Assembly: GCA_000442015.1 (NCBI GenBank)
Contig: KE561079.1
Coordinates: 45,194-65,193, forward strand
DNA from: Rozella allomycis CSF55
Lineage: Eukaryota
DNA: 20,000 nucleotides
Reading direction: 5' to 3'
Shown one piece after another: positions 12,901 through 15,103 of this stretch. The notes beneath the pieces are model-generated. The model made no database searches. It was not told the DNA's origin and was given only the letters and a program-made list of their open reading frames with translations. The translations under genes were made by a program, and so were the position numbers. Position 1 is the first letter of the stretch, and every line of letters starts with the position of its first letter.

Positions 12901-15103
12901 GAAAGGGCTCAACTGTTTCAAGAATTATTAGCGTCCAAACCAGATGAAAATTATCAAGATCCCCATGATTTAGCTGCAATAAAGTACGCAATGGCTAACA
13001 TGGGTGATTATAAACTTAAAAGTAGTTCAAACTATATTGTGCCAGAGAATGAAAGAATAAACGCAGACAAAAAGAAGAAACAAATGACTCTTTTAAAGGA
13101 AAGCATTAGAACCTTAAAACAAGTAATATTCAGTTATGCCATTCAAAGGACTTTAATTCTCAGATTTTTAAATTAAAGTCGTTTAAGGGTTTGCTAATAG
13201 AAGAAATAAAGTCAAAGAATGAATTAATTAAAAAAATAAACAAGGAATTGTCTGAATTGGATGATAACGTAGATTTCCAAATTTGGGAACCTGAAAATGA
13301 CCAGGGTTTACAATTTGAAAAGCGATTTGAAATAACGCAAGAAGAACTTGAAAACTCTAGTAAAATATATTTTTATTTCTAATTTGAAAATAAACCAAAC
13401 TCGAATGATAATGAAAATATTTTGGGCACAAATTTACCGACGCAGATAATCCTACCTGAAGATAAACAAGAAAAGAAGAAACAAAATGTTAAAAAGAAGA
13501 ATGAAAATGCATTGATAATGGAAGAAAAAAAGAGAAAAATAGAAAACTTAATTGAAATAAGAACAAACTTGAAAAGAGAAATAGATTCAGCAGTTGATGA
13601 TTTTGATTCAACTTTGAATGATATAAGAAAGGATAGAGTTCTTTTAGAAGGGGATTTAATTGCTTGTGAAATGAAATATTTATTACTTTTCAAAGAATGG
13701 CAACTCTTGAAAGAATTTGAAGTCAATGATAATCTATTAGCTGATAAACTAAAACACAAAAGAAATGAAAAAACTGAAATATCTGGAAAGCTTAATGAAT
13801 GCCAAGAGAAATTAATTGTTAAAAAAGTTCAAGTTGAAAATATTGTGAAAAATGGGAAAAATATTTTCGATCAATTTCTTCAACTCATTGGAGAAAACAA
13901 TAAAAATGAAGAATTCCTCACAAAACTCTTTAAAAGGAAAATTAAACGATCAAAAAAGAATTCAATTTCTTCTACAAATGATGATAATGGTAAACATCCT
14001 TTTTTCAGTTTATTAGAATCTTCTGATGACGATGAATTAGATTTTGATGACGATTCATTCGATGAAGAAAATGATGAAGATGAATTCGACGAAAATTGTC
14101 CAAAGGATTGCGATTCCGAAATTTACAATCAAGTTTTAACTTTAAGAGAAAAACGTTTAGATCAAGAAGATTTACTAAATGAAATTCAAAAATCAGTCGA
14201 AGTAAATAAATTATTTTATTTTTTATTTGTCAATGAAAAAAGATCATGAATCCTTGTTGAAAAAGGAAAAGATCATTGATTCTTCATTAAGCCAAATAGA
14301 AAAGGAAATTCAAGAATTTCAATTCCAAAAACAACAAAAATTAAATGAATTAGACATCATTGTCCCTCTTCGCTTAAATCAATTAGAAATATCAGATGAT
14401 TCAATATCTCAAGCCCTGGTATTTACAAAACAAGGAATCGCCAAACTAAAGCAAAGAAATATTGATTTGAATCAAGTAAAAGACTCATGCATCTTCAATC
14501 AAAGGAAAAATCTGAAATCAAAAGAAATCATCGCGACTTGAAGAAAATGCACGTGAGTCTTATAAAATCCAAAAAGGAAAAGCAATCCAAAGTATTTCAC
14601 ATTAATTAAAATAATAAAGTTGCTTGAATTAGAAGCAAAAGCTCATGATGTTCAAATGCTAAAATTTGGCAGAATAATCGATTTGGACAAATTAGAACGA
14701 ATGAGCACTAACAAAGCCCTGGATGAAGCAAAAGAAAAAAATCAACAAGAAGAATTAAAAAGAAAAAAAGAATTGGAAGATCTTGAAGTAATGTTTACCA
14801 AACATCTCCAAAGGATCAAATATATCAACTTCGAGAAGATCTGATTAATGTTACAAGAGAAAACACTAGCAAAATGGAAACATTTATTAATTTAACAACT
14901 TCAAAAAGAGACCTTGAGACAGCCTTGAACCAGAAACAAAAAATCATGGTAAGAAATTCTTCATTTTAAAACAGACATCCAAATATAAAGGTTTGGAAAA
15001 TATGGATAATAAAGACATAAATCATCTCAAAGAAATCGCTCGCAAGCAATCATCAGAAATTAAAATGCTAAAACAATTGATTCATGATTACGTCAAAAAA
15101 TAA
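9962..15103 (+). CDS. CFAP44: Cilia- and flagella-associated protein 44 (WDR52): N-terminal WD40 repeats and C-terminal coiled coil
   Basis: Motifs [121 protein letters not shown] and VQMLKFGRIIDLD. Fourteen reconstructed introns: 10075-10102, 10968-10993, 11273-11298, 12176-12201, 12357-12383, 12517-12544, 13123-13148, 13360-13386, 13990-14016, 14202-14229, 14476-14504, 14592-14619, 14788-14813, 14949-14974. Confidence 0.93.

What the first reader, a model, noticed from the sequence alone, without database searches (positions are those of the whole stretch)
13360..13386. Second candidate GT-TG micro-intron in the same gene
Seen: GTAAAATATATTTTTATTTCTAATTTG is 27 nt, contains the in-frame TAA (13380-13382) that otherwise breaks CFAP44, and has a CTAAT branch-like motif just before the end. 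The first AG after the donor is 86 nt away and out of frame; the first in-frame AG (13461) would give 102 nt, over three times the normal length here. Both candidate TG introns begin GTAAA, are unusually T-rich and end ATTTG. Inference: two cases with a shared signature hint at a real intron subclass, although a shared sequencing error mode is possible.
Basis: partly seen in the sequence, partly recalled or inferred. Interest (0 to 1): 0.75.

Follow-up and report, generated by a model that had tools for sequence, protein, structure and literature searches.

The report
Likely micro-intron ending in TG
A 27-base stretch that breaks a flagellar gene looks in every respect like one of this organism's tiny introns except that it ends in TG instead of the near-universal AG, and indirect evidence suggests it is nevertheless spliced out.

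Summary
Window 13360-13386 is a 27-nt GTAAA...CTAATTTG stretch holding the only in-frame stop (TAA 13380-82) between two same-frame exons of a CFAP44-like gene (9962-15103, +). It is not a sequencing error: DNA contigs of two runs are identical there. No RNA data were available, so splicing is inferred, not shown.

Evidence for an intron:
- Its length (27) sits at the mode of 28 canonical GTA..AG introns (22-31 nt).
- It has the usual donor and no AG inside.
- Removing it together with its twin (14202-14229) gives a clean 1598-aa ORF.
- Haplotype differences are 21 synonymous to 3 non-synonymous. All 4 downstream of the stop are synonymous in the predicted frames, so the gene is under selection beyond the break.
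- The twin's TG boundary beats every AG alternative by 27-41 bits against a CFAP44 profile.
- Both TG stretches are more T-rich than all 28 canonical introns.

At 13360 itself homology is undecided, and a 102-nt GT-AG intron is not excluded.

Best reading (about 0.6): a real GT-TG micro-intron with TG as its sole acceptor, the nearest AG lying 59 nt away. Human GT-TG introns are reported only as alternatives beside a nearby AG.

The parts
9962..15103 (+). CFAP44-like gene: ATG 9962 to TAA 15101-15103, with 11 canonical GTA..AG introns plus the two TG candidates
   Evidence: Spliced CDS is 4797 nt and 1598 aa with no internal stop. It scores 1405.7 bits against a profile of 104 full-length CFAP44 homologues. 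The N-terminal WD region is 50-55% identical to chytrid and animal CFAP44.
13149..13359 (+). Upstream exon
   Evidence: Follows canonical intron 13123-13148. The frame is open to 13382.
13360..13386 (+). Candidate GT-TG micro-intron, 27 nt, phase 1 (the finding)
   Evidence: The length is at the mode. T fraction is 0.56. Interior composition log-odds is 5.1 bits, above all 28 canonical introns and all 36 exonic decoys.
13360..13365 (+). Donor GTAAAA
   Evidence: The same hexamer starts 4 of 28 canonical introns.
13379..13383 (+). CTAAT, a branch-point-like motif with its A five bases from the 3' end
   Evidence: Sequence. Three canonical introns end TTATTAG or TCATTAG, placing an A at the same distance. 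Branch-point use was not tested.
13380..13382 (+). In-frame TAA
   Evidence: TAA also terminates the kinase gene and CFAP44 itself.
13385..13386 (+). TG in the place of the acceptor AG
   Evidence: Confirmed in contigs of X2 and X5.
13387..14201 (+). Downstream exon
   Evidence: The frame is open. Three of 3 listed haplotype differences here are synonymous third positions. For 13389-13460 the in-frame coding log-odds is +1.9 bits, against -14.5 and -34.1 in the other two frames.
13444..13445 (+). Nearest AG downstream of the TG (59 nt on); would give an 86-nt, out-of-frame intron
13460..13461 (+). First in-frame AG (102-nt alternative intron)
14202..14229 (+). Sister GT-TG micro-intron, 28 nt, phase 0; needed for the frame change 0 to 1
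   Evidence: The alignment to homologues is gap-free only with this excision. It scores 1405.7 bits against 1379.1, 1370.6 and 1364.6 for the three GT-AG alternatives. An AG lies 13 nt downstream but is out of frame.

Best explanation
13360-13386 is a genuine spliceosomal micro-intron of the CFAP44-like gene whose 3' splice site is UG instead of AG. The proposed mechanism is inferred, not shown. The ordinary GUAAA donor and a branch site about five bases from the 3' end (CUAAU) commit the intron as usual. The very short branch-to-3' distance and an unusually strong U-tract then let the terminal UG dock for exon ligation. The last G keeps its contact with the first intron G, and the lost A at position -2 is tolerated. 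Exons join at 13359|13387, which removes the in-frame UAA and keeps the frame. The same happens at 14201|14230. Because no AG lies within 59 nt, UG would be the sole (constitutive) acceptor here.
For: 1. The DNA is real. TG is present at both sites in contigs of X2 and X5, which differ from the window and from each other elsewhere in the gene.
2. The gene is alive beyond the break. Of 24 listed exonic haplotype differences, 21 are synonymous and 22 lie at codon position 3. There are 13 differences in 345 intron nt against 24 in 4797 exon nt. The 4 differences downstream of the TAA (13889, 13916, 13973, 14400) are all synonymous in exactly the frames that TG splicing predicts.
3. Excising both TG stretches gives one 1598-aa ORF.
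4. The sister site gives precedent in the same gene. The 28-nt TG excision beats GT-AG alternatives by 26.6, 35.1 and 41.1 bits and aligns without a gap in a conserved block.
5. Intron anatomy fits. The 27 nt sits within 28 canonical introns of 22-31 nt (mean 27.0, sd 1.8). The donor GTAAAA is shared with 4 of 28. The intron is 3n with an in-frame stop, like canonical 12357-12383.
6. The two sites share an exceptional feature. T fraction is 0.56 and 0.61, above 28 of 28 canonical introns (maximum 0.46). Composition log-odds is 5.1 and 4.8, above all 28 canonical introns and all 36 decoys.
7. The 24 codons after the stretch look coding: +1.9 bits in frame, above the 95th percentile (-0.9) of off-frame windows.
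8. There is published precedent. [quoted passage not shown] GT-TG introns exist in human (PMC2374985, abstract and section 12; PMC4176328 and PMC1557818, passages).
Against: - There is no RNA evidence: none of the 15 listed runs holding the locus is on record as RNA, and all 4 runs laid kept the introns.
- At this site the CFAP44 profile slightly prefers keeping the 9 residues (1411.9 bits with X at the stop, against 1405.7). It barely separates the 102-nt alternative (1404.0). The region is variable and gap-rich in homologues.
- In human, TG acceptors were never the sole 3' site, lay within 28 nt of an AG, and AG>TG mutants activated other AGs. Here the nearest AG is 59 nt away.
- X5 shows two alleles over 13360-13469, with 4 and 1 differences from the window, all within about 50 nt just after the stretch (records 22 and 23; positions hidden). 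That density is intron-like or reflects weak constraint.
- The X5 contig carries a 1-base insertion after 13997 that would break the frame under any model.
- Two such introns in one gene and none among about 17 introns of the other genes is odd for a general class.
- An exonic GTAAAT...ATTTG of 25 nt at 10308 lies in conserved coding sequence, so the end motifs alone do not make an intron.
Confidence: 0.6

Rival explanations
1. A long canonical GT-AG intron: donor 13360 spliced to the in-frame AG at 13460-13461 (102 nt), or another long GT-AG pair such as 13306-13461 or 13269-13445. This would remove the stop and 25 or more codons.
For: It is in frame and stop-free. Its profile score of 1404.0 bits is only 1.7 below the TG model. 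It needs no rule-breaking acceptor. The X5 alleles are unusually divergent within 13390-13439.
Against: 28 of 28 canonical introns are 22-31 nt. The stretch 13389-13460 is stop-free in frame and scores +1.9 bits of codon log-odds, against -14.5 and -34.1 in the other frames. This model does not explain why the first 27 nt copy the complete signature of the sister TG intron, including its record T-richness. The longer pairs score lower still (1396.9 and 1396.7 bits).
Confidence: 0.13
2. A dead acceptor: an AG-to-TG (or ATTTAG-to-ATTTG) mutation abolished splicing. The mRNA keeps the stretch and is truncated at the TAA or degraded. This copy of the gene would be null or hypomorphic, or the gene would in effect be split.
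For: Human AG>TG mutants do not splice at TG. Two lesions fall in one gene. The X5 contig has a further frameshifting insertion after 13997.
Against: Both TG sites are shared by the window, X2 and X5 haplotypes, which have since diverged. Yet all 4 differences downstream of the stop are synonymous third positions in the predicted frames, and overall 21 of 24 are synonymous. No other stop or frameshift occurs in 4797 nt of the window copy. No AG allele or bubble is seen at 13385 in X2 or X5. The sister site's exact 28-nt excision restores a conserved block.
Confidence: 0.12
3. The stretch is coding and the UAA is read through or decoded as an amino acid.
For: The frame is the same on both sides. 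The profile score is highest with the 9 residues kept (1411.9 bits). UAR = Gln is known in one fungus-related lineage, Amoeboaphelidium (PMC5304391, passages).
Against: No in-frame TAA, TAG or TGA occurs in the other 1598 codons of this gene or in the 818-codon kinase ORF, and TAA terminates both genes. The retained residues are aromatic and hydrophobic in a charged region. Only 17 of 4770 exonic 27-nt windows are as T-rich. In-frame codon log-odds is at the 4th percentile. This model cannot explain the sister site, which needs a frame change.
Confidence: 0.04
4. Sequencing or assembly error: the true sequence is ATTAG or ATTTAG.
For: Both sites end ATTTG after a T run, which could suggest a common error mode.
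Against: Contigs of X2 (depth figure 385) and X5 (1088 and 1049), which carry haplotypes different from the window, are identical to it at both sites.
Confidence: 0.02

Closest known systems
Human/vertebrate U2-dependent GT-TG introns (Szafranski et al. 2007, PMC2374985; also GNAS, TSPYL2 and ARS2 cases in PMC4176328 and PMC1557818)
   Same: An ordinary U2-type donor and a TG as the last two intron bases. There is a pyrimidine at -3 and a purine at +1 at 13360-13386. The sister intron has an AG 13 nt downstream, within the 28-nt tandem limit described there.
   Different: In human, TG is only an alternative acceptor beside a nearby AG and is never the sole site. Here the nearest AG is 59 nt away and out of frame, so TG would have to be constitutive. 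The introns here are 27-28 nt rather than hundreds to thousands, and they carry a record U-tract. Splicing is experimentally verified in human and only inferred here.
Non-YAG (BG, HAU) 3' splice sites used by S. cerevisiae spliceosomes lacking Prp18p (PMC10711555)
   Same: In yeast, use of a G-terminal non-AG site is favoured by an upstream poly(U) tract, by pairing potential with the first intron nucleoside and by short branch-point distance. Both candidates here have exactly those features.
   Different: In yeast these are low-level errors unmasked by a mutant. Here the site would be the normal, productive one in a wild-type organism. Whether this organism has Prp18, Slu7 or U2AF35 could not be checked because no genome is held.
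Canonical micro-introns of this genome, and (recalled, from no call) the ~25-nt introns of Paramecium, in which 3n introns tend to carry in-frame stops
   Same: The length, the GTA donor, AT-richness and a 3n length with an in-frame stop.
   Different: The terminal dinucleotide, and a T content above every canonical intron in the window.

Membership tests
Micro-introns of this genome (GTA..AG, 22-31 nt) | 5' end GTA, usually GTAA | tested here: met
   The 5' end is GTAAAA; 28 of 28 canonical introns start GTA and 4 of them start GTAAAA.
Micro-introns of this genome (GTA..AG, 22-31 nt) | Length within the narrow genomic range | tested here: met
   27 nt, against a range of 22-31, mean 27.0, sd 1.8, n = 28.
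Micro-introns of this genome (GTA..AG, 22-31 nt) | 3' terminal AG | tested here: not met
   TG at 13385-13386 with no AG inside; confirmed in the DNA contigs of X2 and X5.
Micro-introns of this genome (GTA..AG, 22-31 nt) | Removal restores one open frame that matches homologues | tested here: inconclusive
   The frame is restored (1598 aa). The homologue profile does not separate excision (1405.7 bits) from retention (1411.9) or from the 102-nt intron (1404.0) at this site.
Micro-introns of this genome (GTA..AG, 22-31 nt) | Absent from mature mRNA | not testable with these tools
   No RNA holder was listed. The 4 runs laid are DNA contigs that keep all introns.
GT-TG U2-dependent introns as defined in human (PMC2374985) | TG acceptor in tandem with an AG acceptor no more than 28 nt away, used as an alternative | tested here: not met
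   The nearest AG is 59 nt downstream and there is none inside. The sister intron 14202-14229 does meet it, with an AG 13 nt downstream.
GT-TG U2-dependent introns as defined in human (PMC2374985) | Pyrimidine at -3 and purine at +1 | tested here: met
   T at 13384 and A at 13387. The sister intron has T at -3 and T at +1.
U12-type (minor) introns | Extended 5' consensus (A/G)TATCCTT (recalled) | tested here: not met
   The 5' end is GTAAAATA.
Stop-codon reassignment or read-through | The same stop codon used in frame elsewhere in coding sequence | tested here: not met
   No in-frame stop occurs in the 1598-aa CFAP44 model or the 818-aa kinase ORF. TAA ends both genes.
CFAP44 (the host gene) | Full-length similarity to CFAP44 orthologues | tested here: met
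   745 proteins had E <= 0.001, and the best 120 listed are mostly named CFAP44 (the rest hypothetical or WD40 proteins, or unnamed). The model scores 1405.7 bits against a profile of 104 of those 120.

The most novel reading that the evidence does not exclude
This organism has a class of constitutive GU-UG micro-introns. In them an extreme U-tract and a fixed, very short branch-to-3' distance replace the AG as the determinant of the 3' splice site. UG serves as the sole acceptor with no AG nearby, which the human data say does not happen. Two of the 13 introns of one flagellar gene belong to the class, and it may mark regulated or inefficient splicing of that gene.
Probability: 0.4. Interest if true: 0.7.

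Novelty: new variant of a known kind. Interest (0 to 1): 0.52.

Why it matters
The AG at the 3' end of U2-type introns is among the most invariant signals in eukaryotic gene expression. The known natural TG acceptors depend on a neighbouring AG. A natural, productive intron with UG as its only acceptor would show that exon ligation can be specified by distance and a U-tract alone. That would be especially informative in a genome whose introns are about 27 nt long, with the branch site almost touching the 3' end. It would also provide a simple natural substrate for studying second-step fidelity.

Practically, gene finders that insist on AG will break such genes into fragments. Here CFAP44 would be called as three pieces or as a pseudogene.

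Tried and rejected
**RNA evidence.** The look-up of sequencing runs listed 15 runs, 10 holding the stretch, and no RNA holder was listed. Run X5 was laid in case its 0.82 word share meant RNA, but it is DNA with the introns kept.

**Whole genome.** None is held, so no genome-wide census of TG introns and no check for Prp18, Slu7 or U2AF35 was possible.

**Earlier notes.** Three look-ups returned nothing.

**Close relatives for a comparative test of the orthologous intron.**
- A metagenome scan with the exon 13389-14201 found none (575 pattern matches, 0 confirmed).
- A scan with the WD region gave 58 loci, all only 37-57% identical.
- Protein searches found no near relative and no protein of this organism.
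- The two hits to the exon (P0241, P0242) are chytrid-like, 50-62% identical to Rhizophydiales-type CFAP44 but only 43-44% to the window.
- P0242 is open across the position matching 13360, so that relative has no intron there.
- P0241 reads into non-matching sequence right after the residues that precede 14202, as if an intron sits at the same place.

**Organism identity.** It remains unresolved. The kinase search, the atlas and literature searches did not name it. Amoeboaphelidium was rejected because it reads UAR as Gln, whereas TAA is a terminator here.

**Other negative or uninformative results.**
- Rfam and tRNA scans of the window found nothing.
- Common descent of the two TG introns: 79% identity ranks 4th of 435 pairs, but 691 of 2000 composition-preserving shuffles do as well, so there is no evidence beyond composition.
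- My first idea of a GTCGAA...AG intron at site 2 was wrong: it is 47 nt and out of frame.
- A ciliate-type TA-bounded DNA elimination was considered by eye and rejected, because the TA-to-TA distance is not a multiple of three and nothing else here is ciliate-like.
- A literature search for non-AG sites at short distance returned one irrelevant hit.

Full report
**What is there.** The window is eukaryotic DNA read by the standard code, with very small introns. Stop-to-stop ORFs under table 1 include an 818-codon frame without any stop. A CFAP44-like gene runs on the + strand from ATG 9962 to TAA 15101-15103.

I placed eleven introns of the ordinary kind by frame logic: 10075-10096, 10968-10993, 11273-11298, 12176-12201, 12357-12383, 12517-12544, 13123-13148, 14476-14504, 14592-14619, 14788-14813 and 14949-14974. 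All begin GTA, end AG and measure 22-29 nt.

Two breaks in the frame remain. The first is the finding itself. It is 13360-13386, 27 nt, beginning GTAAA and ending CTAATTTG. TAA 13380-13382 is the only block between two ORFs that share a frame. The second is 14202-14229, 28 nt, beginning GTAAAT and ending ATTTG, where the frame must move by one.

**Is the DNA right?** I could find no RNA run holding the locus. I laid four runs. All four are DNA, because their contigs run through every intron, and the only joint reported is an unrelated 333-nt skip in X6.

For X2, the 4.4-kb contig covering 11030-15200 has 12 substitutions and one 3-base insertion relative to the window. All of them are listed at other coordinates, so it is identical at both TG sites. 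For X5, the contig over 13177-13389 has no difference. The contig over 13440-15200 has 8 substitutions, all listed elsewhere.

X1 also spans both sites with one unlisted difference in 3.4 kb. X6 spans the first site with one unlisted difference in 581 nt. The tool hid 25 rows, so those two runs are not fully checked. The runs carry haplotypes that differ from the window and from each other, so a shared sequencing error is not a tenable explanation.

**Is the gene alive beyond the break?** I mapped the 40 listed differences onto the gene model.
- 24 differences fall in exons. Of these, 21 are synonymous, 3 are non-synonymous and 22 lie at codon position 3.
- 13 differences fall in the 345 nt of introns, against 24 in 4797 nt of exons.
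- 3 differences lie beyond the stop codon.

The four exonic differences downstream of the TAA are 13889, 13916 and 13973 (between the two TG stretches) and 14400 (after the second). All four are synonymous third-position changes in exactly the frames that TG splicing predicts. Both TG sites are shared by these diverged haplotypes. The frame has therefore stayed under purifying selection after the TG state arose. This argues against a pseudogene or a dead acceptor.

One observation goes the other way. The X5 contig has a one-base insertion after 13997 that would break the frame under any model. I cannot tell whether it is an amplification or assembly error or a defective allele.

**The sister site gives the strongest evidence that TG can serve as an acceptor here.** I aligned 17 of the 120 listed homologues. 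The 28-nt excision puts the conserved block after the junction in register without a gap. It leaves the same 13 residues between two invariant motifs as in chytrid CFAP44. I then scored each model against a profile of 104 full-length homologues (those over 1600 aa, out of 120):

| Model at site 2 | Bits |
|---|---|
| 28-nt TG excision (14202-14229) | 1405.7 |
| GT-AG 14229-14265 | 1379.1 |
| GT-AG 14202-14265 | 1370.6 |
| GT-AG 14202-14271 | 1364.6 |

**At 13360-13386 itself, homology is mute.** The region is variable and full of gaps in the family. The three readings differ by only a few bits:

| Model at site 1 | Bits |
|---|---|
| Stretch retained, X at the stop | 1411.9 |
| 27-nt TG excision | 1405.7 |
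| 102-nt GT-AG intron | 1404.0 |

The case for this site therefore rests on several other points.
- The stop must be removed, because the downstream frame is under selection.
- The anatomy is that of a local intron. Length 27 sits in a distribution of 22-31 (mean 27.0, sd 1.8, n = 28). These 28 were picked by ORF continuity and are not verified by RNA.
- The donor GTAAAA is shared with 4 of 28 canonical introns. GTAA occurs only 5 times in 4797 exonic nt.
- The site shares with its sister a feature that no canonical intron has. T fraction is 0.56 and 0.61 against a maximum of 0.46. T in the last 18 nt is 12 and 14 against 3-9.
- A simple composition score puts both above all 28 canonical introns and all 36 exonic GTA..AG/TG decoys.
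- The 24 codons that the 102-nt alternative would discard are stop-free in frame and score +1.9 bits of codon log-odds. The other frames score -14.5 and -34.1. That value is above the 95th percentile of off-frame windows but only at the 6th percentile of true coding windows.

Read in frame, the stretch itself scores at the 4th percentile of coding windows. It is as T-rich as only 17 of 4770 exonic windows.

**Cautions.**
- The end motifs alone are common. 17 of 23 exonic GTA sites have a TG at intron-like distance. A 25-nt GTAAAT...ATTTG at 10308 lies in conserved coding sequence.
- X5 carries two alleles with 4 and 1 differences packed into about 50 nt right after the stretch (positions hidden). 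This fits either a weakly constrained linker or intronic sequence.
- The similarity of the two TG introns (79%) is no more than their composition gives (691 of 2000 shuffles), so I do not claim common descent.
- Both cases lie in one gene, and I saw none among the other genes of the window.

**Mechanism and comparison.** Human U2-type GT-TG introns are documented, but TG there is only an alternative acceptor within 28 nt of an AG. It is never the sole site, and AG>TG mutants do not splice at TG (PMC2374985, abstract and section 12; further cases in passages of PMC4176328 and PMC1557818). The sister intron fits that tandem rule, with an AG 13 nt downstream. The finding does not, because its nearest AG is 59 nt away.

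The yeast work on Prp18p is closer in mechanism. Without that fidelity factor, spliceosomes use G-terminal non-AG sites. Use is enhanced by upstream poly(U) and by pairing potential with the first intron nucleoside, and these sites are often under 10 nt from the branch point (PMC10711555, abstract and passages). Both candidates here have exactly those properties. A T-N-A-T motif places an A five bases from the end, as in canonical introns that end TTATTAG or TCATTAG.

I therefore propose, as inference, that in these 27-28-nt introns the U-tract and the fixed short distance let UG dock for exon ligation.

**Host organism.** It is not identified. Its CFAP44 is closest to chytrid fungi: 54-55% identity in the WD region, and 42-46% to Spizellomycetales in the variable exon. 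No protein of the organism itself and no close relative was found. Supplementary files of the papers cited were not consulted.

**Verdict.** A real GT-TG micro-intron is the best reading (about 0.6). The rivals are a 102-nt GT-AG intron (0.13), a dead acceptor (0.12), read-through (0.04) and error (0.02). It is a new variant of a known rarity and is interesting mainly because TG would be the sole acceptor. One RT-PCR would settle it.

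Noticed in passing
window 14202-14229: The sister GT-TG stretch (28 nt) is much better supported than the finding itself. Its exact excision restores a conserved CFAP44 block without a gap and beats three GT-AG alternatives by 27-41 bits.
   Followed up: yes
window 10308-10332: An exonic decoy: a 25-nt stretch beginning GTAAAT and ending ATTTG lies inside the conserved WD-repeat exon. Removing it would shift the frame, so donor and TG end alone do not define an intron. 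Its T fraction is 0.44, against 0.56-0.61 for the candidates.
   Followed up: partly
window 13990-14008 and 13997: An intron-like 19-nt GTAAAC...TTTTTTCAG lies inside the exon; splicing it would run into a stop five codons later. The X5 contig has an extra C after 13997 within it, a frameshift in coding sequence at full contig depth.
   Followed up: partly
whole window, 28 introns on both strands: Intron length is extremely uniform (22-31 nt, mean 27.0, sd 1.8) in an organism whose CFAP44 is closest to chytrid fungi. I know of no zoosporic fungus described with such micro-introns (recalled, not searched systematically).
   Followed up: partly
window 7441-9897 (+): A hybrid histidine kinase (PAS, HisKA, HATPase, receiver). 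Its best matches are bacterial (38% identity to an alphaproteobacterial PAS kinase over 62% of the query). It sits in the eukaryotic contig with a GTA..AG micro-intron-like stretch at 7459-7483 at the start of its long open frame, so a bacterial origin by transfer is possible.
   Followed up: no
window 10232-10379, 10943-11059, 10968-10993, 11273-11298: At least three haplotypes appear in the runs, as paired contigs with depth figures of about 99 and 186 in X1 and about 101 and 146 in X2. Two introns carry 5-6 differences in 26 nt while neighbouring exons carry only synonymous changes.
   Followed up: partly
window 14477: The X2 contig has an AAA insertion just after the donor of intron 14476-14504, which would make it 32 nt. 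Indels are tolerated in introns, and 11-nt and 3-nt deletions occur in the 3' untranslated region in X5.
   Followed up: no
P0241 (metagenome protein, 195 aa): A chytrid-like CFAP44 fragment reads into non-homologous sequence immediately after the residues that precede 14202 in the window. This suggests an intron at the same position and phase in a distant relative. Its DNA, and so its acceptor, could not be seen.
   Followed up: partly
window 15200-16000: A stretch after the CFAP44 stop has only short open frames of up to 94 codons (none of 110 or more) and slightly higher G+C (0.37). No Rfam family and no tRNA was found there.
   Followed up: no
window 16547-16570 (+): Another GTAAAT...GCTTG stretch of 24 nt lies between open frames of 43 and 66 codons. 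I did not establish whether a gene lies there.
   Followed up: no
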